Assembly (NCBI GenBank): GCA_038087875.1
Contig: CM075988.1
Location: forward strand, 15,874,001-15,938,000
DNA: 64,000 nt
Origin: Malacoraja senta
Lineage: Eukaryota
Direction: 5' to 3'
This document shows, piece by piece, positions 7,431 to 45,584 of this stretch. Made by a program: the position numbers and the translations under genes. The stretch's first letter is position 1. Every line of letters begins with the position of its first letter. Under the pieces are notes generated by a model, which was given only the letters and a program-made list of their open reading frames with translations, had not been told where the DNA came from and made no database searches.

Positions 7431-9029
7431 GTCCTCTGTTGTGCCTTTTTGACTGTGGAGTCGATGGTAGCCCCCCACTTAAGGTCCTTGGAGATGATGG
7501 TTCCCAGGAACTTAAAAGACTCCACAGATGTGACTGTGGTGTTCTTGATGGTGAGTGGGGTGAGGGGAGGGGGCTCTCCTAAAGTCTACAATCAGTTCCA
7601 TTGTCTTAAGAGCATTGAGCTCTAGGTTGTTGCGATGGCACCAGGATACCAGCTGTGACACTTCCTCTCTGTAGGCAGACACCTCCCCATCCTGGATCAG
7701 TCCAATCAGGGTTGTGTCGTCCGCAAACTTGAGAAGCCTGACAGAGGTGTCTGTGGAGGTGCAGTCGTTGGTGTAGAGAGAGTAGAGGAGAGGAGAGAGT
7801 ACACAGCCTTGCGGTGCTCCTATGCTGAGTGTTTGTGGGTCCGAGATGTGCTTTCCCAGCCTCACATGCTGCTTCCTGTCTTTCAGGAAGTTGGTGATCC
7901 ACTGACAGAGGGGTTCAGGCTCGGTCAACTTGGAAAGTTTGGAGTGTAGTAGCTCTGGCACAATGGTGTTGAATGCAGAGCTAAAATCAACAAACAGGGT
8001 CCTCGCATAGGTCCCCTGGCGGTCTAGGTGCTGTAGGATGAAGTGCAGGCCCAGGTTGACTGCATCATCCACAGATCTATTGGCCCGATATGCAAACTGC
8101 AGAGGGTCCAGCAGGGAGTTTGTGATATTTTTCAGCTTGGCCAGCACAAGCCTTTCGAGTGTCTTCATGACTACAGAGGTCAGTGCGACAGGCCTGTAGT
8201 CATTAAGACAAGTAATCCTTGCCTTTTTGGGTACAGGGACAATAGTGGAGACTTTGAAGCAGGCAGGGACAATACGTGTTTGTAGGGACTGGTTAAAAAT
8301 GTCTGTTTAGACCGGTGCCAGCTGTTTGGCACAGAGCTTAAGAGTAGAAGGGGAAACATTGTCAGGTCTTGGAGATTTCTGGCTCTTTTGTCCTCTGAAA
8401 AGCCTCTCCACCTCCTCTATTTTTATTGTTGATATTAGATAAGTTATGTTGTGCAGCACAGAGGGTGTGGATGATTGGGTGTGAAGTGGTGATTGGAGGG
8501 GGTAGGGTGTAGAAAGGCACAGTCTTTGCAAATTGAGGTCAGGTTGTGAGTGGGTGTGAAGTGTTGGTTGGGGTGGGAAATGGTCCAGTCTTTTCATACT
8601 GGAGTCTTGCCTTAAGTAGGTGTGAAGTGGTGAATGGGAAGGAGAGGGTGCAGGGTCAATTCTCTGTAGACTGGGGTCTGGCTGTGTTGGTTGAGGAGGG
8701 GGGAGGGGGTACCAGGGTTATGTTTCTGATTTTCAAACCTGCAGTAAAACTCATTCAGGTCGTTGGTCAGCTGACGATTGTCCAAAGAGCGGGGGGCTTT
8801 CCTCTTGTAGCTGGTAATTTCTTGCAAGCCCTTCCAAACTGAAGAAGAGTCACTACCTGAGAACTTGCTCCTCAACTTCTCAGAGTACCTTTCCTTGGCA
8901 GCTCTGATTCCTCTTCTCAGCTTGTACTTGGCCTGCCTGTAGAGGTCTGCATCCCCGCTCCTGTAGGCCTCATCTTTAGACCGTCGGAGCTGTCTGAGTT
9001 CTGCAGTGAACCAGGGCTTGTTGTTGTTG

Positions 9030-9283
9030 GCCGCGGGACTTATTTTCCATCGCCCGCCAGGGGCTCTGACTCTGACATCGGGAGGAGAATGGGGAGTGCA
9101 GGGGAGAGATAAGACTTTGCCTTCCATCACAGAGAGGAGGAGATTCGCTGTGATGGATGTTTGTGTAAATTGTGTTGTGTCTTGGTTCTTTTTACTTGTT
9201 TGTATGACTGCAGAAACCAAATTTTGTTTGAACTTCATTTGAGGTTCAAATGACAATAAATGGTATTGTATTGTATTGTATTG
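9030..9283 (+). mobile_element. 5'-truncated short retroposon nested in the Rex LINE; same family as 22805-23548
   Basis: Interrupts the TRTWF|NNNKPWF codons; shares GCCTTCCATCACAG...CTGTGATGGATGTTT; ends AATAAA plus (GTATT)n. Confidence 0.8.
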
Positions 9284-9769
9284 AACCATGTCCGGGTCTG
9301 AGATGTAATGCAACTGTCCTCGCAAAAGCTGACATATGATGATACAGTGTCCGTATACTCATCGAGGCCTGTGGTTGCTTACCTGAACACATTCCAATCA
9401 ATGCAGTCAAAGCAGGATTGTAGGTTCTCAATGCCCACCTTTTCGTTGTTCTGACCACAGGCTTAGCAGCTTTTAGTTTCTGCTGTAGGTCGGAATAAGG
9501 TGAACTATGAGAGAGAGACCCAGACCCGCCCGTGGAACAGAGCAATATGCGTTCTTGATTGAGGTACAACAGTGATCGAGTAAGAATCAATGTATTCACT
9601 GGCTGAGCGATAGGGTTGGCGGGTGTGACTGTTTGAGGAACAAGGGAATGGCATGGGGGTGGAAGGTTGTCAGGGGAGGAGGTGGGTGAGCTGACACTGT
9701 CCCTAATGGTGAAAGGTTTCGTCTATGAATATGATGAGTGCAGGTATTGGGTCATGGTTAATTATTGTC

Positions 9770-10000
9770 AGACACTAAGTGCTGGGGTGACTCAGTGGGC
9801 CAGGCAGCATCTCTGGAGAAAAGGAATAGGTGACATTTCGGGTGGCAAACCTCCTTCAATGGTTCTGAGTCTGAAGAAGAGTTCCGACCCAAAACGTCAC
9901 CTATTCCTTTTCTCCAGAGATGGTGCCTTAACCACTGAGTTACTCCAGCATTTTGTGTCCATCTTCGGTATAAACCAGCACCTGCAGTTCCTTCCTACAC
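9770..10000. mobile_element. Penelope-derived short inverted-repeat element
   Basis: Arms CAGCATCTCTGGAGAAAAGGAATAGGTGAC and GTCACCTATTCCTTTTCTCCAGAGATG; degenerate hammerhead core at 9871. Confidence 0.75.
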
Positions 10001-10505
10001 ATTTATTATTGTCATGTATACCAGGATACAGTGGAACTCTTGTTTTGCATGCTATCCAGCAGGTTATACCATGCACGAGTACAATCGTGCCATTCGTGAG
10101 TACACATAGACGGAGATTTGAAAGAACGGAACAAATGTAGAGGATATATGTAAATCCTTTGAGGCCAGCATGCAAAGAGTCGGTGCTATCTTAAACAAGG
10201 GCCATAGATATTTAGGTAAATCTTGTTTATCATGATTTTGTCATATAGATTCTGATCATGTAGACTTTGTGCACCTTGAATGAGTGAAGTATTTCCCGTT
10301 TCTAATACAAAGTGGTAATGTGAACGCAGCACATCTATGGATGACATTACAATCTGATTTCACTCCTCCATCTCCTTTGTACCTTCACAAAACCACACGT
10401 GACATGCAGATTGCTCCCATTATAAGTGGATTGCTTATCTGTAGAGTGGTAAAATGATGAAAACCCGATTGCATAACGTTGTGGAACAGGTTAGCACGCG
10501 AACGG

Positions 10506-13500
10506 AAACATAGAAACATAGAAACATAGAAAAATAGGCGCAGGTGTAGGCCATTCGGCCCTTCGAGCCTGCACCGCCATTCAATATGATGATGGCTGAT
10601 CATCCAACTCAGTATCCTGTACCTGCTTTCTCTCCATACCCCCTGATCCCTTTAGCCACAAGGGCCACATCTAACTACCTCTTAAATATAGCCAATGAAC
10701 TAGCCTCAACTACATTATGTGGCAGAGAATTCTACAGATTCACCACTCTCTGTGTAAAAAATGTTTTTCTCATCTCAGTCCTAAAAGATTTCCCCTTTAT
10801 CCTTAAACTGTGACCCCTTGTTCTGGACTTCCCCAACATCGGGAACAATCTTCCTGCATCTAGCTTGTCCAACCCCTTAAGAATTTTGTACGTTTCTATA
10901 AGATCCCCCCTCAATCATCTAAATTCTAGCGAGTACAAGCCGAGTCTATCCAGTCTTTCTTCATATGATAGTCCTAACATCCCAGGAATCAGTCTGGTGA
11001 ACCTTCTCCGTACTCCCTCTATGGCAAGAATGTCCTTCCTCAGATTAGGAGACCAAAACTGTACGCAGGTGTGGTCTCACCAAGACCCTGTACAACTGCA
11101 GTAGAACCTCCCTGCTCCTATACTCAAATCCTTTTGCTATGAATGCTAACATACCATTCGCTTTCTTCACTGCCTGCTGCACCTGCATGCCTACTTTCAA
11201 TGACTGGTGTACCATGACACCCAGGTCTCGTTGCATCTCCCCTTTTCCTAATCGGCCACCATTCAGGTAATAGTCTACTTTCCTGTTTTTGCCACCAAAG
11301 TGGATAACCTCACATTTATCCATATTATACTGCATCTGCCATGCATTTGCCCACTCACCCAGCCTATCCAAGTCATCTTGCGGCCTCCTAGCACCCTCCT
11401 CACAGCTAACACTGCCCCCCAGCTTCGTGTCATCCGCAAACTTGGAGATGTTGCATTCAATTCCCTCGTCCAAATCATTAATATATATTGTAAATAGCTG
11501 GGGTCCCAGCACTGAGCCTTGCGGTACCCCACTAGTCACTGCCTGCCATTCTGACAAGGACCCGTTTACTCCTACTCTTTGCTTCCTGTCTGCCACCCAG
11601 TTCTCTATCCACATCAATACTGAACCCCCAATACCGTGTGCTTTAAGTTTGTATACTAATCTCTTATGTGGTACCTTGTCGAAAGCCTTCTGAAAGTCCA
11701 GATATAACACATCCACTGGTTCTCCCTTATCCTCCCTTATCTAGTTACATCCTCGAAAAATTCTATAAGATTCGTCAGACATGATTTACCTTTCATAAAT
11801 CCATGCTGACTTTGTCCAATGATTTCACCATTTTCCAAATGTGCTGCTATCCCATCTTTAATAACTGACTCTAGCAGCTTCCCCACTACCAATGTTAGAC
11901 TAACTGGTCTGTAATTCCCCGTTTTCTCTCTCCCTCCCTTTTTAAAAAGTGTGGTTACATTAGCTACCCTCCAATCCTCAGGAACTACTCCAGAATCTAA
12001 AGAGTTTTGAAAAATTATCACTAATGCATCCGCTATTTCTGGGGCTACTTCCTTAAGTACTCTGGGATGCAGCCTATCTGGCCCTGGGGATTTATCGGCC
12101 TTTAATCCACTCAATTTACCTAACACCACTTCCCGGCTAACCTGGATTTCACTCAGTTCCTCCATCTCATTTGACCCCCGGTCCCCTGCTATTTGCGGCA
12201 GATTAATTAAGTCTTCCTTAGTGGTCTGCCATGCCCTTGTTCCCCATGATCAATTCACCTGTTTCTGACTGCAAGGGACCTACATTTGTTTTAACTAATC
12301 TTTTTCTCTTCACATATCTATAAAAACGTTTGCAGTCAGTTTTTATGTTCCCTGCCAGTTTTCTTTCATAACCTATTTTCCCTTTCCTAATTAAACCATT
12401 TGTCCTCCTCTGCTGGACTGAATTTCTCCCAGTCCTCTGGTAGGCTGCTTTTTCTGGCTAATTTGTATGCTTCATCTTTTGTTTTGATACTATCCCTGAT
12501 TTCCCTTGTTATCCACGGATGCACTACCTTCCCTGATTTATTCTTTTGCCAAACTGGGATGAACAATTGTTGTAGTTCATCCATGCAGCCTTTAAATGCC
12601 TTCCATTGCATATCCACCGTCAATCCTTTAAGAATCAATTGCCAGTCTATCTTGGCCAATTCACGTCGCATACCCTCAAAGTTACCTTTCTTTAAGTTCA
12701 GAACCCTTGTTTCTGAATTAATTATATCACTCTCCATCCTAATGAAGAACTCAATCATATTATGGTCACTCTTGCCCAAGGGGCCACGCACAACAAGACT
12801 GCTAACTAACCCTTCCTCATTACTCAATACCCAGTCTAGAATAGCCTGCTCTCTCATTGGTTCCTCTACATGTTGATTTAGAAAACTATCCCGCATACAT
12901 TCCAAGAAATCCTCTTCCTCAGCACCCCTGCCAATTTGATTCACCCAATCTATATGTAGATTGAAGTCACCCATTATAACTGTTTTACCTTTGTTGCACG
13001 CATTTCTAATTTCCAGTTTGATGCTGTCCCCAACTCCACTACTACTGTTAGGTGGCCTGTACACAACTCCCACTAGCGTTTTCTACCCCTTAGTGTTTCG
13101 CAGTTCTACCCATATCGATTCCACATCCTCCAAGCTAATGTCCTTCCTTTCTATTGCGTTAATCTGCTCTCTAACCAGCAACACTACCCAACCTCCTTTT
13201 CCTTTCTGTCTATCCCTCCTGAATATTGAATATCCCTGGATGTTCAGCTCCCAGCCTTGGTTACCCTGGAGCCATGTCTCCTTGATCCCAACTATATCAT
13301 AGTCATTAATAGCTATCTGCACATTCAACTCATCCACCTTATTACGAGTGCTCCTTGCATTGAGACACAAAGTCTTCAGGCATGTTTTTACAACACTCTT
13401 ACCCCTTATACAATTATGTTGAAAAATTGCCCTTTTTGATTTTTGCCCTGGATTTGTCTGCCTGCCACTTTTACTTTTCACCTTGCTACCTATTGCTTCT

Positions 13501-14640
13501 ACCCTCATTTTACACCCTCTGTCTCTCTGCTCACACATTTAAGAAACCCACCACCTCTTATTCTCTGTTTATTATATTTTTCTTCTTTCCCCCCTACATG
13601 TTGGGTCTGAGTGCTTCCCTTCTCTGCCTCCTGCCTCACACACTGTCTACTAGTTTTCTCTATTTGAGTTCCTCCCCCCAACCGTTCTAGTTTAATGTCT
13701 CCCCAGTAGCCTTTGCAAATCTCCCCACCAGGATATTGGTCCCCCTCGGGTTCAAGTGCAACCCGTCCTTTTTGTACAGGTCACACCTTCCCCAAAAGAG
13801 GTTCCAATGATCCAGAAACTTGAATCCCTGCCCACTGCACCAGTCCTTCAGCCACGCATTTATCCTCCAACTCGCTCCATTCCTACTCTCACTGTCGCGT
13901 GGCACAGGCAGTAATCCTGAGATTGTTACCTTTGCGGTCCTTTTCCTTAACTCTCTTCCTAACTCCCTAAATTCTCCTTTCAGGACCTCTTCCCTTTTTC
14001 TACCTATGTCATTGGTACCTATATGTACCACGACCTCGGGCTCCTCTCCCTCCCATTTCAGGATATCTTGGACACGTTCAGACACATCCCAGACCCTGGC
14101 ACCAGGGAGGCAAACTACCATCCGGGTCTCCCGACTGCGTCCACAGAATCGCCTGTCTGACCCCCTAACTATAGAGTCCCCTATTACTACTGCCTTCCTC
14201 TTCTTTTCCTTACCCCTCTGAGCAACAGGGCCGGTCTCTGTACCGGAGGCCCGGCCGCTGTTGCTACCCCCAGGTAGGCTGTCCCCCCCAACAGTACTCA
14301 AACAGGAGTACTTATTGTCAAGGTTTACAGCCACCGGGGTACTCTCTAGTCCCTGCCTCTGCCCCTTGCCCCTCCTAACTGTGACCCATTTGTCTGTCTC
14401 CCGTGGTTTTGGAGTGACCACCTCTCTATAACTCCTCTCTATGACCTCCTCACGCTCCCTGACCAGACGGAGGTCATCCGAGCTGCTGCTCCAGGTTCCT
14501 AACACGGTCCCTTAGAGCCCCATCTCGACGCACCTGGCGCAGATGTGGACGTCTGGAGGGCTATCAGACTCCATGACTTCCCACATCTGACATCCAGAAC
14601 AGTAAACTGCCCTGGCCCTCATACTCCTCCCTTACCCTGG
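10506..14640 (-). mobile_element. CR1 LINE, near full length, decayed (ORF1 zinc finger/esterase; ORF2 endonuclease and RT)
   Basis: CLNARSTRNK, GDFNLH, SDHN, YLDFQKAFDKVPH, SGVPQGSVLGP, KFADDTKLG; (CTATGTTT)n tail at 10506-10530. Confidence 0.95.
13687..14620 (-). pseudogene. CR1 ORF1, SGNH/GDSL esterase-like with N-terminal Cys motif (frameshift near 14480)
   Basis: VIGDSIVRG, CLPGARV, VHIGTND, DGLHLN blocks; upstream CSGCQMWE...CARC. Confidence 0.85.
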
Positions 14641-20446: not shown

Positions 20447-22308
20447 GAGTCTGCAGGGTCCAGTTGTGAGGACCAGATTGTCCAGGGACCGTTTCCCCTC
20501 AAGGAGGGGACACATTCCTCGCTGGACAAAATACTCTATTCCTTTTGCGACAGGACACAGAGGGAAACACCCAATGAAACAGGGACCATGAAAGGTGACG
20601 CGACAACCAGCAAGACTATCAGTGAACAATTGAACACCAGGGCTCCAACCCACTCGCACGTCAACAGCGCCTTAGGGCTGTTCCAGAGAGGCGGCTGAGT
20701 GTGAGTGAGGGAGATGTGGTCTCATGGTCTTATTCATGTCAGCATGTAAACACTTTCTCCTTTCGTCCCCAGCATATCACTGAATGTGTCCCCGCTCTCT
20801 CTGCAGGGAAAGCATGATTCAAGTCCACCTCCACATATTGCCTGACACAATATCCACACAAAGTGCATATTAAAGTCCATCAATACAAATGTTGACCAGA
20901 GCTCTCTCTGAACTTTGTCCACCGTGTTAAATGCTAGAACTCTCGTTAAATACACAGAACCTCTTCTGGAGCACCTCAAGACTGACCTTCAACCTGTGAG
21001 AGGAAGTCACAGCATGTTGTTAATTCCTCCTGAACTGAAGTATTTTCCAGATTTTTTATCAAACTTGCAATGCCTGTTCCAGTTATAAATCATAGTCTTT
21101 GCCACTGCCAATGTGTCCGTGATTTCTGAAAACCCAATGCATTCTGCTCATATCTTGCCAAGTAGAAAATTATTCTCAAAATCAGCTTGTCTTACAGATT
21201 GATTGTGGTGGAAGATCAACAGATCTTTAGGTCTTCAGAGCTCAACTTTCTGACACATCGGGCCAATTTGGCTGTGTGTAGTGGGCACTTGCCCATAGAC
21301 TCTGTTTGTTATGTTCTGCAGGTTATTGTAATCATCGCTGCATCTTGCACAGGGCTTGTATGAGTCAGATGACCAACACTGTGTCTCCTTAACCAGTTAC
21401 TGAAGGATCACGAATGAGCAGCACAAAGTCTGAAAGTGTAAATGTAAGAATATTTGATGCAATCAAATCAGATACTTTTAAATTATTTTTGTGGGATATA
21501 TATATTCCATATAAGGCCATCATGTAATGATGCCCTTCTTCGAACTGCCCTTGGGAAAGTGATGATGAACTGCTGCCTTCATTTTCATAGTCTGTGTGGT
21601 GAATTTCACTGCAGTTTTCTGCAACTGTGTGGCTTGCTAGGTAATTTCAAAGAGCAGATAGTGATCAGGAATCATATATAGGCCAGACCATATAAGGAAG
21701 GCGGGTATCTTTCCTAGTCTTCAGAGAACCATATGGGCTTTTATGACACTTCAGTGGTCTAATACTTACCCTGAATGATTCTATCTACTAATTCCACATC
21801 CTATTAATTAAATTCAAGTTCTCCAGGTGCCTGTGGGGTTTGAACACCTATCCGCATCCAAGCCTTCCGATTATGAGCCCAGTCATTTAAAACTAAAGCG
21901 CCAAACACTGAAAATAAAAGAAGGATAAGGGCAAGACAGTGTGAAGAAAAAACACCAGAAGAAAAAGTAAAGCAATTTTTTTTGTTTGTTTAAGAAAAAT
22001 CTCCAATGATAATTAGTATCTGAAAGAATGGGACTCCATATAGAATTTTCAATGCCAAGTGAACCAGATATCAAATTTTGCACAATGAACATTAGACTGG
22101 GGTAGACAAATCCTAACTTCCTATGGCAAGTTTAATTTGTATCTATATAATCGCACAGTGCAGTAAATATGAAGTGTGTAGTCTGAGATATGATTTTTGA
22201 GCAATTATGCTGAAATAATGCACCTCTTTAACACACACTTTTCACAATCACAATAATACTTTGGTAGACAAAAAATGCTGGAGAAACTCAGCGGGTGAGG
22301 CAGCATCC

Positions 22309-31487: not shown

Positions 31488-33127
31488 AGTCAAGTCAAGT
31501 TTATTCGTCACATACACATACGAGATGTGCAGTTAAATGAAACGTGGCAATGCTCGCGGATTGGGCAAAAAAACAAACAAACAAACTACAAACAGAATGG
31601 AAGAATAGAATCACATATTCTTTTACATATTAAATATTGTGGGCGGAAGGAAAAAGGGGAAAAAAACGGGAAAAACAAAAAACAGCAATTTTTTAAAAAC
31701 AGTAGAGTGGTTCAGTAAAGTTAGTCCCTGGTGAGATAGGAGTTTACAGTCCTAATGGCCTCTGGGAAGAAACTCCTTCTCAACCTCTCCGTTCTCACAG
31801 CATGGCAACGGAGGCGTTTGCCTGACCGTAGCAGCTGGAACAGTCCGTTGCTGGGGTGGAAGGGGTCTCCCATGATCTTATTGGAGTTGCACCTTCTAGT
31901 TCCTGCAGGGGGGCGAGTGTAGTTTCCATTGTGCGTTCGGCCGAACGCACTATTCTCTGCAGAGCCTTCTTGTCCTGGGCAGAACAATTCCCAAACCAGA
32001 TTGTAATATTTCCGGACAAGATGCTTTCCACAGCTGCTGAGTAAAAGCACTGGAGGATCTTCGGAGACACTCTGAATTTCCTCAATTGCCTGAGGTGGTA
32101 AAGGCGCTGCCAGGTGTGATGTCCATGTCATATCCTCAGAGATGTGGACTCCCAGGTATTTAAAACAGCTCACCCTATCCACAGTATCCCCATTTATCCT
32201 CAATGGTGTGTACGTCCTCAGATGATGTGCCCTCCTAAAGTCCACGATCATCTCCTTAGTTTTTTTGATGTTCAAGAGGAGGCTGTTGTCCTGACACCAG
32301 AGTGCCAGATGAGCCACCTCCTCCCGGTAGGCCTTCTCATCGTTGTCTGAGATCAGGCCCACCACCACAGTTTCATCAGCAAACTTGATTATCGAGTTGG
32401 AGCTGAACCTGGCCAGACAGTCATGTGTGTACAGGGAGTACAGTAGTGGGCTGAGGACCCAATCCTGGGGGGATCCTGTGCTCAGGGTGAGGGACTTCGA
32501 TATATTCCCTCCCATCTTGACTACCTGGGGCCTGGCGGTGAGAAAGTCCAGGGTCCAGGCACACAGGAGGGTGTTGAGCCCTAATTCCAGTAGCTTCTCG
32601 GCCAGTCTGGTGGGGACTATCGTGTTGAAGGCTGAACTGAAGTCTATGAACAGCATCCTCACGTAGCCCCCCTTCTGGCTGTCAAGATGAGAGATAGCGG
32701 TGTGCAAAACCTGGGAGACCGCATCGTCCGTGGGCCTGTTCGGACGGTATGCGAATTGTAACTGGTCCATGTTGCGAGGGAGGAAGGCGCAGATGTGTTT
32801 CTTCACCAGCCTCTCAAAGCATTTCATGACTACCGAAGAGAGGGCCACTGGACGGTAGTCATTCAGACAGGCTGGGGAGGCATTTTTAGGTACCGGTACA
32901 ATGATGGATTTTTTGAAGCAGGCAGGGACCGCGGACTTGTCCAGGGAGAGGTTGAATATTGTAGTGAACACCGGAGCTAGCTGCGTAGCACAGAACTTAA
33001 GTACTCGCCCCGAGATGCCATCGGGGCCTGCAGCTTTCCTCGTGTTCACCCGTGTCAGAGCCCTCCTCACATCGTGCTCGGAGAATGGGAATGTGAGCAC
33101 ATTCCTCCCTTCAGCTTCGATAGCCAG
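31488..33127 (-). mobile_element. Rex1/Babar LINE, 5'-truncated, inserted in an older CR1 fragment
   Basis: 476-aa [44 protein letters not shown]; (TTGAC)n tail. Confidence 0.92.
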
Positions 33128-33729
33128 CCTCACTCTTATACTTAATGCCACAACCTATGAAAGCAAGCACACCATATGCTTTCATTCTGAGGTCATACGT
33201 AAAGTATCTGTATCAACGATTCTTCAGGCTGGAAGGTCATCAAAATACCAAAGATTTAAGTGCAAACTAGAAACTCACAAGCTTGAAATGAAACTCTATG
33301 TGGACAATCTGAAAAGGGAGTTCACCACGTGTGTCACTTGTGCATGTCTCCTCAACAGCACAGTGCTGCCATCAAGCTTCTTGACCAGACAAACCTGCCT
33401 CACAACGCCAACTTGTTTCCATATAGAATGGGGCAACACATGATGCTGTTCTTGAAATTTGAATGGGACAGCATGGAATATCACAGACAGGGGGTTTTCA
33501 TCTGATTGAACCAATTGCCAACTTCTCTCTTTCTTTGTAATCTGTTCAGGACAAATCCAATATTTAAAATTCTATTCCGGTTATGCAAGAAATGCTAACT
33601 GTCTGTGCTGTGCAGAAGCTGCAATGTTTCAACACGTTTTACTTGCAAAAATGTTTACAGGCATTGAATGATGAGTTACACTCAGTTGACTAGATCAATC
33701 TGTTTCAACTTGTCCACCTGCATCCTTAA

Positions 33730-36719: not shown

Positions 36720-39700
36720 AAGACCCGGTCCAAGTCGGCAGCGGAGCGGCAGGTGAAGGAGAGCAGGGTTTGGTTGACGAATTTAATTCACAAATTGGTA
36801 AATTGGCGAATTAGGCAATGAATCAGCCAATATAAGCAAAGTTTGCTCTAGGGGAGCAGTCTGTCGGGGAACGGCCTTGTCGAGGGAAGGGCCTTGTGAG
36901 TAAAGTGCCAGTCTTTGGCTCAAGAGTCTTTGACGAGGAGGCTGATCGAAATGTGTGATTTTTGTCCACTGAAGAAATGGCAGGCATGTTGGTGCAGTGT
37001 GTTTCCTGCAGGATGTGGGAAGTCAGGGGCACGGCTGGAGCTTCTGGAGACTACACCTGCAGAAATTGTGTCCAGGTGCAGCTCCTGAATGAACGTGTTG
37101 AGGAACTGGAGAAGCAGCTGGATGAACTCCGGGCCATCCGGGAGAACGAGAGTTTCGTGGACAGGACTTACAGTGAGGTTATCACGTCAAGGAAATACAG
37201 GAAGAGAAAAGGTGGGTGACTGGGAGAAAGGGGAGTAACCGTGGGGTGCAGGAGACCCCAGTGGCTGTGCCAAATGAAAACACGTACACTCTTTTGGGGC
37301 AGACGACACTTCCAGTCCAAGCAGCGAACAGGTCGGTGCCTCCAATCCTAGTGATGAGACTCGACTGGTGAGACCGACGTCGGGCAGAGCTATAGTAGTG
37401 GGTGACTCCATTGTCCGAGGTGCGGACTGGAGATTCTGTGGCGGCAGGCGAGACTCGAGGATGGCCTGTTGCCTCCCTGGTGCCAGGGTTCAAGATATCC
37501 CAAACTGACGTCAGAACATCCTCGAGAGGGAAGGTGAACAGCCGGCAGTCGTTGTGCACGTGGGCACAAACGACGTCGGGAAGAAGAAGAAGGAGGTTCT
37601 GCAATGCGAGTTTGGAGAAGAAGACTGAAAAGCAGGACTTCTAGCGTGGTTGTCTCTGGATTGCTTCCAGTACCTCGTGCTAGTGAAGGCAGGAACAGGG
37701 AGATAGGGGATCTGAAAGTGTGGATGGGGGGCTGGTGCAGGGAACAAGGATTTGGATTTATAGACCACTGGGATCTCTTCTGTGGTAGGGGTGACCTGTA
37801 CAAAAGGGACGGGTTACACCTTCACTGGAGGGTGATTAACGTTCTGGCAGACAGGTTTGCTAGTGCTACACGTGTGGGTTTAAACTAAATAGGGGGGGGG
37901 GGGTTGACAAATTGGGAGTATAAAGATGGAGTTAAAGGAGAAGTGAGTACAGGAAAAGTTACAAAAGATTCCCGAATTAATGGGAAGAAATGTTTGAGAA
38001 CGGATAAGAGAGTACAGTCAGGGCCAATAGTGACCGGTGTGAGAGGCGAAGTGACTACTGAAGTTAAAGTGTTGTATATGAATGAGCAAAGTATAAGAAA
38101 TAAAGTGGATGAGCTTGAGGCTCAGTTAGAAATTGGCAAGTATGATGTTGTGGGAATTACAGTGACATGGCTGCAAGAGGACCACAGCTGGGAACTGAAT
38201 ATTCAAGGCTATACGTCCTATCAAAAAGACAGACAGGTGGGCAAAGGGGGTGGGGTAGCTCTGTTCGTGAGGAATGAAATTCAGGCCCTTGCGAGGGGTG
38301 ACATAGAATCAGGAGATGTGGAGTCAGTATGGATAGAACTGAGGAATTGTAAGGGTAAAAATACTCCAATGGGAGTTATATACAGGCCCCCAAACTGTAG
38401 CCTGGATATAGGGTGCAAGTTGAATCAAGAGTTAAAATTAGCATGTCGCAAAGGTAATGCTACGGTTGTTATGGGAGATTTCAACATGCAGGTAGACTGG
38501 GAAAATCAGGTTGGTACTGGACCCCAAGAAAGGGAGTTTGTGGCGTGCCTCCGTGATGGATTCTTAGAGCAGCTTGTATTGGAGCCTACCAGGGAGAATG
38601 CAATTCTGGATTTAGTGTTGTGTAATGAACCTGATTTGATGAGGGAACTCAAGGTAAAGGAGTCATTTAGCGTGATCATAATATGATAAGTTTTAATCTA
38701 CAATTGGGGAGGGAGTAGGGAAAATCGGAGGTGTCAGTATTACTATTGAACAAAGAGGATTATGGAGCCATGAGGGAGGAGCTGGCCAAAGTTGACTGGA
38801 AAGATACCCTAGCAGGGATGACAGTGGAACAACAATGGCAGGTATTTCTGGGAATAATTCAGAAGGTGCAGGATCAGTTCATTCCAAAGAGGAAGAAAGA
38901 TTCCAAGGGGAGTAAGGGATGGCCGTGGCTGACAAGGGACATCAGGGACAGTATAAAACTAAAAGAGAAGTATAACATAGCAAAGGTGAGCGGGAAGACA
39001 GAGGATTGGAAAACATTTAAAGAGCAACAGAAGATAACTAAAAAGGCAATGCGGGGAGAAAAGATGAGGTACGAAGGTAAGTTAGCCAAGAATATAAAGG
39101 AGGATAGTAAAAGCTTTAGGTATGAGAAGAGGAAATAATTTGATAAGGCCAAAGTTGGACTCTTGAAGACTCAAACAGGCGAATTTATTATGCGGATCAA
39201 GGAAATGGCAGATGAGTTGAACAGGTACTTTGGATCCGTCGTCACTTAGGACACAAACAATTTTCCTGATGTACTAGTGGCCAGAGGATCTGGGGTGACG
39301 GAGGAACTGAAGGAAATCCACATTAGGCAGGAAATGTGTTGGGTAGACTGATGGGACTGAAGGCTGATAAATTCCCAAGGTCTGATGGTCTGCATCCCAG
39401 GGTACTTAAGGAAGTGGGTCTTGAAATCGTGGATGCATTGATGATTATTTTCCAATGTTCTATAGATTCAGGATCAGTTCCTGTGGATTGGAGGGTAGCA
39501 AATGTTATCCCACATTTTAAGAAAGGTGGGAGAGAGAAAACAGGGAATTATAGACCAGATAGCCTGATAGTGGTGGGGAAGATGCTGGAGTCAATTATAA
39601 AAGTTGAAATAGCGGCACATTTGGAAAGCAGTAACAGGAAAATCATGCTTGACTAATGTTCTGGAATTTTTTGAGAAAGTAACTAGGAAAATGGACAAGG

Positions 39701-40915
39701 GAGAGCCAGTGGATGTAGTGTACCTGGACTTACAGAAAGCATTTGATAATGTCCCACATAGGAGACGAGTGGGCAAAATTAGAGCACATGGTATTGAGGG
39801 TAGGGTACTGACATGGATAGAAAATTGGTTGGCAGACTGGAAACAAAGAGTAGTGATTAATGGGTCCCTTTCAGAATGGCAGGCAGTGACTAGTGGGATT
39901 CTCCAAGGCTCGGTGCTGGGACCGCAGCTATTTCCAATATACATTAATGATTTAGATGAAGGGATTAAAAGTAACATTAGCAAATTTGCAGATGACACAA
40001 AGCTGGGTGGCAGTGTGTACTGTGAGGAGGATGCTATGAGGCTGCAGGGTGACTTGGACAGGTTGGGAGAATGGGCAGATGCATGGCAGATGCAGTTTAA
40101 TGTGGATAAATGTGAGGTTATCCACTTTGGTGGCAAGAACAGGAAGGCAGATTATTATCTGAATGGTGTCAAGTTGGGAAAAGGGGAAGTACAACGAGAT
40201 CTGGGGGTCCTTGTTCGTCAGTCACTGAAAGTAAGCATGCAGGTACAGCAGGCAGTGAAGAAAGTGAATGGCATGTTGGCCTTCATAACAAGAGGAGTTG
40301 AGTATAGGAACAAATAGGTACTTCTGCAGTTGTATGGGGCCCTAGTGAAATCACACCTGGAGTATTGTGTGCAGCTTTGGTCTGCAAATTTGAGGAAGGA
40401 CATTCTTGATATCGAGGGAGTGCAGTGTAGGTTTACGAGGTTAATTCCCGGGATGGCGGGACTGCCATATGTTGATAGAATGGAGCTGCTGGGCTTGTAT
40501 ACTCTGGAATTTAGAAGGATGAGAGGGAATCTTATTGAAACATGTAAGATTATTAAGGGTTTGGGCACGCTAGAGGCAGGAAACATGTTCCCGATGTTGG
40601 GGAAGTCCAGAACCAGGGGCCACAGTTTAAGAATAAGGGATAAGCAATTTAGAACGGAGATGAGGAAAAACTTTTCACTCAGAGGGTTGTGAATCTGTGG
40701 AATTCTCTGCCTCAGAGGGCAGTGGAGGCCAATTCTCTGGATGCTTTCAAGAGAGAGCTAGATAGGGCTCTTAAAAGTAGTGGAGTCATGGGGATATGGG
40801 GAGAAGGCAGGAACGGGGTACTGATTGGGGATGATCAGCCATGATCACAGTGAATGGCAGTGCTGGCCGAACGGCCGAATGGCCTACTCCTGCACCTGTT
40901 GTTTATTGTCTATTG
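36720..40915 (+). mobile_element. CR1 LINE, near full length, decayed
   Basis: ORF1 CVSCRMWE...CRNC, GDSIVRG, VHVGTND, DGLHL; ORF2 GDFNMQ, YLDLQKAFD, QGSVLGP, KFADD; TATTGTCTATTG tail. Confidence 0.95.
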
Positions 40916-41139
40916 ACTAAAGCGTATCTGGCTACAGATTATCCAAACCCCTCCACTCCCTGCATATCCATGTGCCTATCCAAAAGTTTCTTAAATGCCA
41001 CTATCATATTTGCATCCACCCTCACACCCGCAGTGCGTTCCAGGCACTTACCACCCTCTGTGTAAAAATGTTGTCCCTCACATCTCCCTCAAACGTTGCT
41101 CCTCTCACCCGAAAGCTTTGCACTCTGGTATTTGATATA

Positions 41140-42015
41140 TCAGATTCAGATTCAACTTTATTGTCATTGTGCAGTGTACAGTACAGAGACAATGAAATGC
41201 AGTTAGCATCTCCCTAGAAGAGCGAAATAAATATGAGCAGTAAATAAATAAATCTAATAAATCCTGGTGGGAGGAGTGTCCGGGGGGGTGTGATTTGCAG
41301 TCACCGAGGTACAGTGTTGAGTAGTGTCACAGCCGCAGCTGAGCGCCCTTCGCAGACAACGCTTGCTTTGGACAGACTCAATGGAGGGGAGTGAGGAACG
41401 GTGATGCGTTGGGCAATTTTCACCACCCTCTGCAGTGCTTTCCGGTCGGAGACAGTAGTTGCCATACCATACTGTGATGCAGTTAGTAAGGATGCTCTCG
41501 ATGGTGCAGCGGTAGAAGTTCACCAGAATCTGAGGAGACAGATGGACCTTCTTTAGTCTCCTCAGGAAGAAGAGACGCTGGTGAGCCTTCTTGACCAGAG
41601 TTGAGGTATTGTGGGTCCAAGAGAGGTCATCGGAGATGTTGACCCCCAGGAACCTGAAGCTGGAAACACGTTCCACCTCCATCCCGTTAATGTGGATGGG
41701 GGGGGGGGGTGCGTGCCGCCCCTAGACTTCCTGAAGTCTACAATGAGCTCCTTGGTCTTCTTGGAGTTAAGGGCCAGGTTGTTGTCAGCGCACCATGCTG
41801 CTAGGAGCTGGACCTCCTCCCTAAAGGCCGACTCATCGTTGTTGCTGATGAGGCCAATCACCGTTGTATCATCTGCATACTTGATGATGGGTGTTAGTAC
41901 CATGTACAGGTGTGCAGTCGTAGGTGAAGAGGGAGTAGAGGAGGGGGCTCAGCACACAGCCCTGTGGAACGCCGGTGTTCAGGGTGAGGGTTGAAGAGGT
42001 GTGCTTGTCTAACCT
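41140..42015 (-). mobile_element. Rex1/Babar LINE 3' fragment
   Basis: IIKYADDTTVIGLI, LNSKKTKELIVDFRK, KKAHQRLFFLRRL; (TGAATC)n tail. Confidence 0.9.
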
Positions 42016-42019
42016 TCCA

Positions 42020-42850
42020 TCCTGGAAGAAAAGTGTTGTCTGTCTTTATCTATGCCTCTCATAACTTTACACTCTTCTATTACGTCTCCCTCAGCCTATG
42101 GTGTTCCTGAGAAAACAATCCAATTCTGTCAAGAGAGAGTTAGATTTAGCTAAGGGGAATCAAGGGATATGGGGAAAAAGCCGGAACAGGGTACTGATTT
42201 TGGGATGATCAGCCATGGCAGTGCTGGCTCGAAGGGCCGAATGGCCTACTCCTGCTACTACAGTATTTTCTATGTTTCTATGTTTCTGTCCAACCTCTCC
42301 TTGCAACTAATACCTTCTAATCAGGCATCATTCTGGTAACCCTCCTCTGCACCCTTTCGATAGCCTCCACATCCTTCCGTATTGGGCAACCAGAATTGCA
42401 ACGCAATACTCCAAATATATTGTCAAACAACATCCTATAAAGTTGCATCATGACTTACAAACTCTTATACTCAGTGTCTCGACCAAAGAAGGCAAGCATA
42501 CCATAAGCCTTCTTTATCATTCTATCTACGAGTGTTGCCGCTTTCAGGAAGTTATGGACTTTAGACCTGATTTCTCTGTACATCAATGCTATTAAAGGAC
42601 TTTCCATTAATTGTATATTTTCCCTTACATTCAACCTTCCAAAGTGCAACACCTCACACTTGTGATTAAACTCCATCTGCCATTTTTCCACCCATTTCTG
42701 TAGCTGAACTGCATCCCATTGTATACGTTGACCGACTTCCGCACAGTCTGTGACCACAGCAATCTTGGTGTCATCTGCAAACTTACTAACCATCTACATT
42801 CAAGTCTGAATCATTTACAATGTCATGAGCAACAGAAGTCCAGCACAGAT
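42020..42850 (-). mobile_element. CR1 RT/3' fragment
   Basis: SKFADDTKI...WQMEFN.KCEVLHFG. Confidence 0.85.
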
Positions 42851-44570: not shown

Positions 44571-45336
44571 ACAGTGACTCTAACTGAAATTACAAGCCTT
44601 TGCCACTCTCTCTCACCCTCCACTTCCACATTCAACATCTCTAGATTTCCACCCTATCAGAGATATCTTCTTTATTCCCTCCTGCTCATTCCATTCTCTG
44701 CATGCTTGTTTTCTAACTTTTCTAGGTTCTGTCTAATAATCCTTAGGTATTTCCCAGAGACATGGATGGAATTTCACCGCACAGCTGGTACAGTTTAGGA
44801 TTTCTGCAATCACACTATTGGCAGGCTGTGAGATGATACTCAGACCCAAGACCTCCTCCTTTCCAATTCCTTAGAGTTTTTCAAGTTCCTTCTTTCCCCT
44901 CTCGTTTCCACTCTCCCTCCCCACCACTCTCCCTCCTCTCCTCTTCCCTTCCCATGCTATCATTCAATGTTGATCCAGTTACTATCTGAATGGATATATC
45001 CTAATTGGGCAAAAAGTGATGAAGGGGAAATGCTGACAGTTGATGGGAAGGTTTGGTCAAGGGGCAGCAAGGGTATGACATTTCCCCTTGAAATCTCGTT
45101 GGGAGAAGATGAGAACATTACACCAGTGGTGCCAGATATCGGTTCAGGAGTTGTACTCTATTTTCCAAATTCGAATGGTCACGGATTCCCAAAGCAAATA
45201 CTTATGAGCATACTCCTGGCTGACAGTCCAGTCCAACTGAGGGGGTGAACTAAACTTTGGTCCCATCCTGATTCAAACATGAATGTACTCATAGCACCAA
45301 TTCAAGAAAAATGTAAAAACTCCTCACTAGTTTTCC

Positions 45337-45478
45337 TTCTTCTTCTTTCGTGTGGCGTGCACAGCCTAAAGTTGTTGGGACAACTTGTTCTATTCGATCT
45401 TCCGTTTGTGCACGTCGAGTTGATTGTATTAGTCAAAACAGGGCGGACCACATGAAGGTTGCCAATCTTCCACCCCTC
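45337..45478 (-). mobile_element. 142-bp non-autonomous retroposon with ribozyme-like head and (GAA)n tail
   Basis: 10-bp TSD CTAGTTTTCC at 45327-45336 and 45479-45488; 3' end CCACACGAAAGAAGAAGAA. Confidence 0.85.
45422..45476 (-). ncRNA. HDV/CPEB3-like self-cleaving ribozyme fold
   Basis: GGGGUGG(P1) AA GAUUGGCA(P2) ACC(P3) UUCAUGU(L3) GGU(P3') CCGCCCU(P1') G UUUUGA CUAA(J4/2, catalytic C) UACAAUC(P2'). Confidence 0.75.
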
Positions 45479-45584
45479 CTAGTTTTCCGATCAGTGCTCA
45501 ACTCAAAGATCAAATGAAGAAGTAAGGAACTACAGAGGCCGTTTTACACAAAAGAACACAAATTTTGGCTTGTTTTCATAGGAT

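What the first reader, a model, noticed from the sequence alone, without database searches (positions are those of the whole stretch)
45337..45478. Ribozyme-headed mini-retroposon: HDV/CPEB3-like fold at the 5' end of a 142-bp SINE-like element
Seen: the insertion is bounded by a 10-bp TSD and has a (GAA)n tail. Its first 55 nt on the minus strand fold as a nested double pseudoknot. P1 is 7 bp (GGGGUGG/CCGCCCU) with the G.U wobble at position 1. P3 is ACC/GGU closing L3 UUCAUGU, followed by a single P1.1 G, an almost absent P4 and J4/2 CUAA. P2 is GAUUG/CAAUC and is imperfect beyond 5 bp in this copy. The predicted cleavage site (G at 45476) lies 2 nt from the TSD. The 3' half forms a separate stem (CGUGCACA/UGUGCACG enclosing AAGUUGU/ACAACUU). 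I see no tRNA A/B boxes. Established: HDV-like ribozymes process the 5' ends of R2, RTE and ingi/L1Tc retrotransposons, and the CPEB3 ribozyme L3 is UUCACGU. Inference: this is a promoter-less SINE family that cuts itself out of host transcripts and borrows a LINE (possibly Vingi/ingi-like, from the tail) for insertion. It would be among the smallest HDV-like folds. I cannot confirm it is undescribed.
Basis: partly seen in the sequence, partly recalled or inferred. Interest (0 to 1): 0.88.

Follow-up and report, generated by a model that had tools for sequence, protein, structure and literature searches.

The report
Ribozyme-headed short retroposon family
A 140-base mobile element present in thousands of copies begins with a fold like the hepatitis-delta/CPEB3 self-cutting RNA, which most likely trims its own front end out of longer transcripts, and sister families in the same genome carry even closer look-alikes of the "mammalian" CPEB3 ribozyme.

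Summary
Window 45337-45478 (minus strand) is one slightly decayed copy of a short retroposon with a 10-bp target-site duplication and a (GAA)n tail. Its tail 22-mer has 4263 exact matches in the 1.94-Gb genome.

In intact copies the first 54 nt form a P4-less HDV-like double pseudoknot: P1 7 bp with G1.U, P2 7 bp, P3 3 bp, L3 UUCACGU, J4/2 CUAA or CGAA. Target-site duplications abut G1, the predicted cleavage site.

At least six other element families in the same genome carry the same core on different, complementary helices. One heads a LINE whose ORF opens with an AP-endonuclease. Across 10 sequences, 95% of pair cells are paired against 73% in shuffles, and 12 of 17 pairs show changes on both sides. 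Eight of 8 fetched relatives exceed the Rfam gathering score of the "mammalian" CPEB3 ribozyme (37-64 bits). The finding's own family does not (25.6 bits or less).

- Self-cleavage was not tested.
- One poly(A) RNA-seq run showed no pile of read starts at G1.
- The LINE partner is not pinned down. A LINE 3' end sharing CACACGAMA(GAA)n is the best candidate; Vingi/ingi has no support.

The kind is known (HDV-like ribozymes on R2, RTE, L1Tc and their non-autonomous derivatives). The P4-less eukaryotic form and the multi-copy CPEB3-type set appear new in the literature I could search.

The parts
45479..45488 (-). Upstream copy of the target-site duplication, GGAAAACTAG
   Evidence: Read directly; identical to 45327-45336.
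45477..45478 (-). Two extra bases (GA) between the duplication and G1
   Evidence: In the family, 1-8 extra bases at this junction occur in 21 of 51 copies that have a duplication of 7 nt or more.
45422..45476 (-). HDV/CPEB3-like head, 55 nt in this copy and 54 nt in intact copies. P1 is 45470-45476 with 45440-45446; P3 is 45457-45459 with 45447-45449; L3 is 45450-45456; J4/2 CUAA is 45429-45432; P2 is 45463-45467 with 45422-45426. This copy is decayed.
   Evidence: Sequence. Intact copies pass my HDV-like descriptor and this copy fails it. Covariation across related families.
45356..45414 (-). 3' hairpin: outer stem CGUGCACA/UGUGCACG, inner stem AAGUUGU/ACAACUU
   Evidence: Minimum-free-energy fold of the 3' half of copy L024. 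Both arms are kept in subfamilies A and B.
45346..45354 (-). Terminal motif CACACGAAA just before the tail, shared with a LINE 3' end (CACACGACA)
   Evidence: Families 2 and 3 end in ACTCGATAA and ACACGAAAA.
45337..45345 (-). (GAA)3 tail; its length varies between copies
45327..45336 (-). Downstream copy of the target-site duplication, GGAAAACTAG

Best explanation
The element is one old copy of an abundant, recently active, non-autonomous non-LTR retroposon. Its first 54 nt encode a minimal (P4-less) HDV-like ribozyme of the CPEB3 type. The proposed cycle has three inferred steps. (1) A source copy without its own promoter is transcribed as part of a longer transcript. (2) The head folds into the nested double pseudoknot and cleaves 5' of G1, which fixes the RNA's 5' end. 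(3) A LINE reverse transcriptase recognises the 3' end (hairpin, CACACGAMA motif and (GAA)n) and copies the RNA into a staggered nick by target-primed reverse transcription. This gives 7-17-bp duplications, often with a few extra bases at the 5' junction. What is shown: multi-copy status, precise 5' ends at G1, duplications, one empty site in related organisms, conservation of the head between subfamilies, and covariation of P1, P2 and P3 across sister families with an invariant putative catalytic C. What is inferred: the cleavage itself, co-transcription, and the identity of the LINE.
For: Copy number and age. There were 2806 first-look candidates, and the 39 other scored copies were about 96% identical to the window copy. 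A second subfamily gave 217 candidates. The tail 22-mer has 4263 exact matches against 0 for the reversed control. For copy L024, one contig in each of two runs from other organisms skips 149 bases with 12 shared letters, which is the empty site. A contig from a third run spans the filled junction with 0 differences.

5' ends. Of 59 top-hit elements, 51 have a duplication of 7 nt or more, and it ends within 2 nt of G1 in 41 of them (exactly at G1 in 19). In an unbiased sample of the first 20 tail matches, 19 carry the head and 1 is cut to about 45 nt. Fifteen of the 20 have a duplication, and it ends within 2 nt of G1 in 10.

Fold. Intact copies have P1 7 bp, P2 7 bp, P3 3 bp, L3 UUCACGU, G37 and C44NAA. 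P1 plus P3 is the pseudoknot-free minimum-free-energy fold of the 54-mer. The descriptor gave 67 hits in real sequence and 0 in 10 shuffles.

Subfamilies. Subfamilies A and B differ in the head only at two unpaired positions, J1/2 A/G and J4/2 CUAA/CGAA. The 3' 80 nt differ at about 12 positions. CUAA and CGAA are the J4/2 forms of the Rfam F. prausnitzii and CPEB3 consensus lines.

Sister families. Families 2 and 3 gave 2047 and 2056 first-look candidates. They start at G1 against duplications (5 of 9 and 5 of 7 exactly) and end in (GAA)n. The Rfam CPEB3 model found 39 matches over its cut-off among 59 scored candidates, and 0 in 14 control genomes. All 8 fetched loci were over the cut-off.

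Covariation on 10 sequences from 7 families. 95% of cells are paired, against a shuffled mean of 73% (0 of 500 shuffles reach 95%) and 43-54% with slid partners. Twelve of 17 pairs change on both sides. P2 is not in the Rfam model's structure, yet it is 100% paired and 6 of its 7 pairs covary. C44, A46, A47, G37 and four L3 positions are invariant.

Promoter. There is no tRNA-like head (no tRNA, 7SL or 5S Rfam match). The same fold heads a protein-coding LINE, which argues against a Pol III promoter role.
Against: No cleavage assay exists. Rfam does not recognise the finding's own family. Scans found 0 matches in the window and 0 of 20 whole loci listed for any HDV-type family. An element-only scan gave only RF02682 at 14.4 bits, E 1.2. 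The 25.6-bit CPEB3 match in L005 leaned on a chance match of its flank.

In the one raw RNA run laid (poly(A) RNA-seq, organism F; 4177 reads, 99% running on into unlike flanks) no position showed a pile of starts or ends (table 6). Most poly(A) RNA molecules holding the element there are therefore not cut at G1, although most genomic copies carry decay mutations.

P4 is absent and P1.1 can be at most one or two pairs, which in some HDV-like ribozymes lowers activity (recalled).

The covariation set was picked by structure-aware tools: families 2 and 3 by my descriptor, and families 4-7 by a model that scores P1, P3 and P4. Only P2 in families 4-7 is free of that circularity. No LINE has been tied to the element.
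Confidence: 0.8

Rival explanations
1. The fold is real and selected, but it does not work by self-cleavage. It could be a 5' structure bound by the LINE protein, or one that protects the RNA end. The 5' end would then be set by transcription initiation or another nuclease.
For: No cleavage has been shown. No pile of starts at G1 appeared in poly(A) RNA-seq. Family 1 scores poorly with the Rfam HDV-type models.
Against: The invariant positions are those of the HDV-type catalytic core: C of J4/2, A46, A47, the L3 positions, G37 and the G1.U wobble. Close relatives pass the gathering score of a family whose members do cleave. The 5' end coincides with the HDV-type cleavage site in three families whose P1 sequences differ.
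Confidence: 0.1
2. This is an ordinary Pol III SINE. The head is a degenerate tRNA-type promoter (GTTTCGAC resembles a B box), the start at G1 is the transcription start, and the pseudoknot is coincidence.
For: Precise 5' ends are also expected from a fixed Pol III start. GUUUCGA loosely resembles the B-box consensus (recalled, not scored). The family's intact copies have no run of four T.
Against: ARAGORN found 0 tRNA in 4 loci, and no tRNA, 5S or 7SL Rfam match appeared. Sister families keep the pairings while changing the helix sequences, and they lack the GUUUCGA stretch (families 3 to 7). The same fold heads a protein-coding LINE. The descriptor gave 0 hits in 10 shuffles.
Confidence: 0.04
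3. Family 1 is a non-cleaving remnant of a CPEB3-type ribozyme. The loss of P4 killed catalysis, and its 5' end is set in trans or by template end effects of the reverse transcriptase.
For: Family 1 has the weakest match to the CPEB3 model. P4 is replaced by a 5-nt linker.
Against: Young copies still start at G1. The head is better conserved between subfamilies than the rest of the element. P4-less family-2 variants still pass the CPEB3 cut-off (43.7 and 37.4 bits). P4-less HDV-like ribozymes from phages cleave in vitro (PMC10879173, passages).
Confidence: 0.06

Closest known systems
HDV-like ribozymes at the 5' ends of non-LTR retrotransposons (R2, R4/Dong, RTE, Baggins, L1Tc)
   Same: The ribozyme sits at the extreme 5' end and the cleavage site coincides with the element's 5' junction. 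The elements lack their own promoter and are released from co-transcripts (PMC6765202 and PMC3774820, passages). Family 4 here is such an autonomous element.
   Different: The element of the finding has no ORF and is only about 140 bp. Its ribozyme lacks P4, and it inserts throughout the genome.
Non-autonomous derivatives that keep the partner's ribozyme: NARTc/SIDER of trypanosomatids and R2 SIDE elements
   Same: These are short, ORF-less elements whose first tens of bases are an HDV-like ribozyme and whose 3' end serves the partner's reverse transcriptase (abstracts of PMC3383444, PMC4035085 and PMC3414825 in the listing). A review states that some non-autonomous SINEs use hammerhead or HDV-like ribozymes (PMC6765202, passage).
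   Different: Those elements share head and tail sequence with an identified partner. Here no LINE with the same head sequence was found, and the link to a 3' end rests on a 9-nt motif plus (GAA)n. The Pr77 head of trypanosomatids is also a promoter, which was not examined here.
Mammalian CPEB3 ribozyme (Rfam RF00622)
   Same: L3 UUCACGU, J1/4 GU and J4/2 CGAA (subfamily B) are identical, and the topology is the same. Sister families match the model at 37-64 bits, and family 6 is also alike in P4.
   Different: CPEB3 is a single-copy intronic sequence reported only from mammals (PMC8233481 and PMC11620745, passages). Here the fold is multi-copy and heads mobile elements. Family 1 itself stays below the cut-off and has no P4.
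Minimal (P4-less) HDV-like ribozymes: drz-Mtgn and theta ribozymes of gut phages
   Same: The P4 domain is absent and the size is about 50-55 nt. Some of these were shown to cleave in vitro (PMC10879173, passages).
   Different: Those come from phage genomes and are often next to tRNAs. This one is in a eukaryotic retroposon and its core sequence is of the CPEB3 type.

Membership tests
HDV-like (delta-like) self-cleaving ribozymes | Nested double pseudoknot: P1, P2, P3 (with or without P4), with the P2 5' arm inside the P1 span | tested here: met
   Intact copies pass the descriptor. Covariation: 95% of cells paired and 12 of 17 pairs compensatory. The window copy itself fails.
HDV-like (delta-like) self-cleaving ribozymes | Cleavage site immediately 5' of the first P1 nucleotide, with G1 in a G.U wobble | tested here: inconclusive
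   G1.U36 is present, and DNA 5' junctions sit at G1 (41 of 51 within 2 nt). The RNA cut itself has not been seen: no pile of starts appeared.
HDV-like (delta-like) self-cleaving ribozymes | Catalytic cytosine in J4/2 (C-N-A-A) next to the P2 3' arm | tested here: met
   C44, A46 and A47 are invariant in 10 sequences from 7 families.
HDV-like (delta-like) self-cleaving ribozymes | Divalent-metal-dependent self-scission giving 5'-OH and 2',3'-cyclic phosphate | not testable with these tools
   This needs an in vitro transcription and cleavage assay.
Rfam RF00622 CPEB3_ribozyme | Score at or above the gathering threshold of 35 bits | tested here: not met
   Family 1 scored 25.6 bits at best, and that score was helped by a chance match in the flank. 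It was not listed in 20 of 20 loci or in the element-only scan. Sister families met the threshold in 8 of 8 loci, at 37.4-64.2 bits.
Rfam RF00622 CPEB3_ribozyme | Single-copy sequence in an intron of CPEB3, in mammals | tested here: not met
   The fold is multi-copy and sits at element 5' ends. Host taxon and CPEB3 synteny were not examined.
Classical SINE | Head derived from tRNA, 7SL or 5S RNA with an internal Pol III promoter | tested here: not met
   ARAGORN found 0 tRNA in 4 loci. Rfam gave no such match.
Classical SINE | 3' end shared with a partner LINE; target-site duplications; simple-repeat tail | tested here: inconclusive
   Duplications and the (GAA)n tail are present. The LINE 3' end in L033 shares only CACACGAMA(GAA)n. 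None of 20 tail-selected copies was a LINE.
Ribozyme-headed non-autonomous non-LTR elements (NARTc, R2 SIDE type) | Head ribozyme shared with an autonomous partner in the same genome | tested here: inconclusive
   A LINE with a related CPEB3-type head exists (family 4), but its helices and its P4 differ. No recurrent non-SINE sequence follows the family-1 head among 159 pattern matches, of which 100 were listed.
Minimal P4-less HDV-like ribozymes (drz-Mtgn/theta) | No P4 domain; P1 3' arm joined to J4/2 by a short linker | tested here: met
   The linker is GUUUCGA in family 1 and GUUUCCA in family 2.
Minimal P4-less HDV-like ribozymes (drz-Mtgn/theta) | Phage genome context, often flanking tRNA genes | tested here: not met
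   The context is a 1.94-Gb eukaryotic genome and an interspersed retroposon.

The most novel reading that the evidence does not exclude
The single-copy 'mammalian' CPEB3 ribozyme would be a domesticated head of an ancient ribozyme-headed retroposon. This genome would then preserve a living radiation of that lineage: one LINE and at least six short non-autonomous families, totalling thousands of copies. That would supply the missing outgroup for CPEB3 ribozyme evolution and a natural series running from the full P4-bearing form down to a 54-nt core.
Probability: 0.35. Interest if true: 0.8.

Novelty: new variant of a known kind. Interest (0 to 1): 0.66.

Why it matters
HDV-like ribozymes on retrotransposons are established, so the principle is not new. 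Three points would interest a specialist.

1. **A natural P4-less ribozyme in a eukaryote.** This is a 54-nt HDV-type ribozyme driving a family with thousands of copies. Minimal forms have so far been reported from phages and metagenomes (PMC10879173, passages).
2. **A whole set of families sharing one catalytic core.** They sit in one genome on different helices. That gives ready-made covariation data and a graded series for structure-function work.
3. **Matches to the CPEB3 ribozyme model far above its cut-off, as multi-copy heads of mobile elements.** The CPEB3 ribozyme is described as single-copy and as not found outside mammals, leaving it without outgroups (PMC8233481 and PMC11620745, passages). 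If the similarity reflects descent, the origin of that ribozyme becomes testable.

I did not determine the host taxon. The multi-copy, element-borne state differs from the published mammalian state whatever the host.

Tried and rejected
**Rfam.**
- The gathering scan of the window gave 0 matches.
- The permissive scan of 45250-45560 gave only an irrelevant mir-184 match at E 1.
- Twenty whole loci gave no HDV-type match.

**LINE with the same head.** A pattern holding the head's 3' part plus three 'not-SINE' positions gave 159 matches. The 100 listed were mostly SINE copies with small indels, and no non-SINE continuation recurred.

**LINE with the same tail.** None of 20 tail-selected copies was a LINE. 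BLAST of the element against about 330 kb of local sequence found only full copies.

**Linking the ribozyme-headed LINE (family 4) to the (GAA)n LINE 3' end of L033.**
- The coordinates of the 11 head-bearing copies and of the top 40 3' ends do not coincide.
- No exact 24-mer of that 3' end lies 3-6 kb downstream of the seven family-4 5' ends on contigs C1 and C2 (matches with one mismatch were not listed).
- The two are therefore probably different LINE families, or family 4 ends differently.

**LINE clade.** Pfam shows only Exo_endo_phos in the N-terminal 190 aa. The protein atlas gave generic endonuclease clusters. 'RTE-like' therefore rests on architecture (endonuclease first, no ORF1, 13-nt 3' UTR, trinucleotide tail) and on recall. 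Vingi/ingi was not tested directly, and nothing found points to it.

**RNA evidence.**
- No RNA holder was listed by the look-up of sequencing runs.

**Folding energies.** The z-scores of the head are not significant (-0.04 and 0.92). This is expected, because the pseudoknot is not modelled.

**Earlier findings and literature.**
- The search of earlier findings by place, by sequence and by six words returned nothing.
- Searching three sequence strings found no relevant paper.
- The phrase 'CPEB3-like ribozyme' showed 0 occurrences in every listed paper.
- Ruminski 2011 and Webb 2009 are not held, so whether they list vertebrate SINE-like carriers is open.
- Repbase and Dfam could not be consulted.

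Full report
**1. The observation**

On the minus strand, the 10-mer GGAAAACTAG occurs at 45488-45479 and at 45336-45327. Between the two copies lie two extra bases (GA), a 129-nt body starting at G 45476, and (GAA)3 at 45345-45337. The window has no second copy. Rfam finds nothing here at gathering scores and nothing relevant at E up to 10.

**2. A large, young family**

- The window lies in a 1.94-Gb assembly of 6182 contigs. The element drew 2806 first-look candidates, and all 39 other scored copies were about 96% identical to it.
- A copy found by chance in a flank led to a second subfamily, B, with 217 candidates at 94-97% identity.
- The 22-mer CCWACAACTTTAGGCTGTGCAC from the 3' hairpin has 4263 exact matches, against 0 for the reversed control. 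By inference the family has on the order of 10^4 copies.
- I took the first 20 of those matches as an unbiased sample. Nineteen carry the head; one of these lacks the first 5 nt. One is cut down to the last 45 nt or so. None runs upstream into LINE-like sequence.
- For copy L024, contigs of two runs from other organisms each skip 149 bases with 12 shared letters, which is the empty site. A 1007-nt contig of a third run spans the filled junction with no difference. The family therefore moved recently.

**3. The 5' ends**

| Set | Elements | Duplication of 7 nt or more | Ends exactly at G1 | Other positions of the end relative to G1 |
|---|---|---|---|---|
| Family 1, top hits | 59 | 51 (7-15 nt) | 19 | 1-2 nt inside: 10; 1-2 nt upstream: 12; 3-8 nt upstream: 9; 4 nt inside: 1 |
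| Family 1, unbiased sample | 20 | 15 | 6 | within 2 nt of G1 (including the 6 exact): 10 |

Ends 1-2 nt inside reflect microhomology with the leading Gs. A few extra bases at the 5' junction, as in the window copy, are common.

**4. The fold in intact copies**

The window copy differs from the family norm at several places. It has an extra G in the P2 5' arm, G-to-A in the P2 3' arm, C-to-U in L3 and C-to-U in the linker. Intact copies read:

GGGGUGG-RA-GAUUGCA-ACC-UUCACGU-GGU-CCGCCCU-GUUUCGA-C(U/G)AA-UGCAAUC

- This gives P1 of 7 bp with G1.U36, P2 of 7 perfect pairs, P3 of 3 bp and no P4, in 54 nt.
- P1 plus P3 is the pseudoknot-free minimum-free-energy fold of the 54-mer. Its z-scores are not significant, as expected when P2 cannot be modelled.
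- My descriptor requires P1 of 7 bp, P3 of 3 bp, L3 of 7-8 nt, P2 of at least 6 Watson-Crick pairs abutting P3, and CNRA before the P2 3' arm. It accepts intact copies and rejects the window copy.
- Over 695,536 nt (both strands of the window and 110 loci) it gave 67 hit starts. It gave none in each of 10 block-shuffled replicates.
- Subfamilies A and B differ in the head only at two unpaired positions, J1/2 (AA/GA) and J4/2 (CUAA/CGAA). Their 3' 80 nt differ at about 12 positions. The source lineages have therefore kept the head.

**5. Rfam on the finding's own family**

- Copy L005 matched RF00622 (CPEB3 ribozyme) at 25.6 bits, E 4.7e-5, in register. Part of that score came from a chance match of its flank to the model's 5' leader.
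- Twenty whole loci gave no HDV-type match.
- An element-only scan of a subfamily-B copy gave a single hit on either strand: RF02682 (HDV ribozyme of F. prausnitzii) at 14.4 bits, E 1.2, covering nt 1-54 exactly.
- By Rfam's criterion, family 1 is not a member of any curated HDV-type family.

**6. Sister families**

Two of the 67 descriptor hits were not family 1.

- Family 2 (L075, 178 nt) reads GGGGUC-AA-GGAAAGA-GCG-UUCACGU-CGC-GGCCCU-GUUUCCA-CCAA-UCUUUCC.
- Family 3 (L050, about 200 nt) reads GGCCCC-AUA-GCAGAA-GCG-UCCACGU-CGC-GGGGCU, then a 21-nt J1/4-P4 segment, then CUAA-UUCUGC.
- Each drew about 2050 first-look candidates at 92-97% identity.
- Both end in (GAA)n and start at G1 against duplications: exactly at G1 in 5 of 9 (family 2) and 5 of 7 (family 3).
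- Both match RF00622 at about 27 bits.

Searching the whole genome with RF00622 gave a rough 102,231 first-look candidates. Of 59 scored, 51 had E of 1e-3 or less and 39 exceeded the 35-bit cut-off, with a best score of 64.2 bits. The 14 control genomes gave none.

I fetched 12 of these hits and rescanned 8 of them. All 8 were over the cut-off, at 37.4-64.2 bits. They include:

- P4-less family-2 variants, at 43.7 and 37.4 bits;
- three further families (5, 6 and 7), of which family 6 resembles the CPEB3 consensus even in P4;
- family 4.

In family 4 the ribozyme is followed after about 40 nt by an ORF (MMSRSPTNG...). Residues 33-168 of that ORF match Exo_endo_phos, PF03372, at E 1.1e-9. Family 4 is therefore an autonomous LINE with the endonuclease first and no ORF1. 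Eleven copies cover its head and first 684 nt.

**7. Covariation** (alignment of 10 heads from 7 families; pair counts)

| Measure | Observed | Control |
|---|---|---|
| Pair cells forming standard pairs | 95.0% | shuffled mean 73.0%; 0 of 500 shuffles reach it |
| Same, with partners slid by 1-3 columns | n/a | 43-54% |
| Pairs with changes on both sides | 12 of 17 | n/a |
| P2 cells paired | 100% | n/a |
| P2 pairs with changes on both sides | 6 of 7 | n/a |

- Invariant columns include C44, A46 and A47 (J4/2), G37, and four L3 positions.
- Caveat on selection: families 2 and 3 were found by a descriptor that demands pairing, and families 4-7 by a model that scores P1, P3 and P4.
- P2 is a pseudoknot that the Rfam model does not encode. 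Its compensatory changes in families 4-7 (GUAGAA/UUCUAC, GCAGGA/UCCUGC, GAAGGA/UCCUUC) are therefore the cleanest evidence.

**8. The partner LINE**

- L033 holds a 5'-truncated LINE copy of about 350 bp with its own duplication (ATCATAAGT). It has the end of an ORF, a stop codon, a 13-nt 3' UTR and a (GAA)n tail, reading ...AAGACACACGACA(GAA)n.
- That LINE drew at least 1302 candidates, and the 39 other scored copies are 96-99% identical to the query.
- Its last bases match the ends of the short families: CACACGAAA in family 1, ACACGAAAA in family 3, ACTCGATAA in family 2. This is the best partner candidate, but the shared stretch is short.
- I could not tie it to family 4. Coordinates do not coincide. 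No exact 24-mer of this 3' end lies 3-6 kb downstream of seven family-4 5' ends.
- No LINE carrying the family-1 head sequence turned up.
- Nothing found points to Vingi/ingi. 'RTE-like' rests on architecture and on recall.

**9. RNA**

- No run that holds the stretch is on record as RNA.
- One raw poly(A) RNA-seq run (organism F) gave 4177 reads on the element, and 99% of them continue into unlike flanks. No position showed a pile of starts or ends.
- This does not support cleavage in that sample. It is weak evidence against efficient cleavage of the bulk of copies, most of which carry decay mutations.

**10. What it most likely is**

It is a promoter-less, non-autonomous retroposon. Its 5' end is set by a minimal CPEB3-type HDV-like ribozyme, and its 3' end (hairpin, CACACGAMA, (GAA)n) is used by a LINE reverse transcriptase. 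The window copy is a decayed insertion and probably cannot cleave.

**11. Comparison with what is known**

- HDV-like ribozymes at the 5' junction are described for R2, R4/Dong, L1Tc and RTE (PMC3774820, passage).
- They are also described for Baggins and RTE elements that lack promoters. The same review says some non-autonomous SINEs use hammerhead or HDV-like ribozymes (PMC6765202, passage).
- NARTc/SIDER and R2 SIDE elements are non-autonomous carriers (abstracts in the listing).
- The kind is therefore known.
- P4-less minimal HDV-like ribozymes are described from metagenomes and phages (PMC10879173, passages).
- The CPEB3 ribozyme is described as lying in a single-copy gene and as not found outside mammals (PMC11620745 and PMC8233481, passages).
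- In the held library I found no paper with the head sequence and no use of 'CPEB3-like ribozyme' in the listed papers.
- Ruminski 2011 and Webb 2009 are not held, and Repbase and Dfam are out of reach. 'Undescribed' therefore remains unproven.
- I did not determine the host taxon.

**12. Verdict**

The reading is supported at the level of sequence, structure and population of copies. Catalysis and the partner LINE remain to be shown.

Noticed in passing
L131-L136 (G000 C21:8958106-8958189, C1:217550485-217550568, C1:86602691-86602774 and others): These loci hold a LINE 5' end with a full CPEB3-type ribozyme (P4 of 8 bp) scoring 57-64 bits against RF00622. About 40 nt further on, an ORF opens with an AP-endonuclease domain. 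Eleven copies cover the first 684 nt.
   Followed up: partly
L137:601-679 and L139:101-170: Family 6 heads resemble the CPEB3 consensus even in P4 (CUGUCAGAUUCUG...GCGAAUCCUGCU), which looks like shared descent and not convergence. Both fetched copies are decayed at the 5' end.
   Followed up: partly
Downstream of P2 in L075, L111-L130, L135, L137 and L139: Families 2, 3, 5 and 6 all continue directly after the P2 3' arm with a CCACCACC-like or CCACAC-like stretch. Family 1 and the LINE do not. Its role is unknown.
   Followed up: no
One search list, e.g. L066, L086, L089: A recurrent short variant of family 1 joins the ribozyme directly to AAATAAGATCAAAT, losing the 5' arm of the outer 3' stem. 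It accounts for about 16 of the 100 listed pattern matches. The outer stem may therefore not be needed for mobility.
   Followed up: no
L024:1501-1635 compared with 1696-1755 (run X10): RNA reads on the element are about 2:1 in favour of one mate orientation (183-228 against 64-140). An unrelated repeat 200 nt away is about 1:1 (1677 against 1852). This could reflect an orientation bias of copies in genes or loss of sense-strand RNA.
   Followed up: no
L033:173-521 (minus): A 5'-truncated LINE copy carries a 13-nt 3' UTR and a (GAA)n tail. Its family is very young and abundant: at least 1302 candidates, with the 39 other scored copies 96-99% identical to the query.
   Followed up: partly
L120: A family-2 element is inserted into the 3' end of a family-1 copy, so family 2 was active after that family-1 insertion. 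L113 and L114 are the same insertion with identical flanks on two contigs, which points to a duplicated segment.
   Followed up: no
G000 C8:937615-937815: Several short matches to nt 12-44 of the LINE head lie in tandem just upstream of one LINE copy. This suggests a local tandem repeat of the ribozyme's 5' part.
   Followed up: no
window 7500-14500, 31700-33200, 37500-42800: The window is dense with LINE fragments carrying reverse-transcriptase and endonuclease ORFs of other families. Runs of N lie near 22,300 and 57,700.
   Followed up: no
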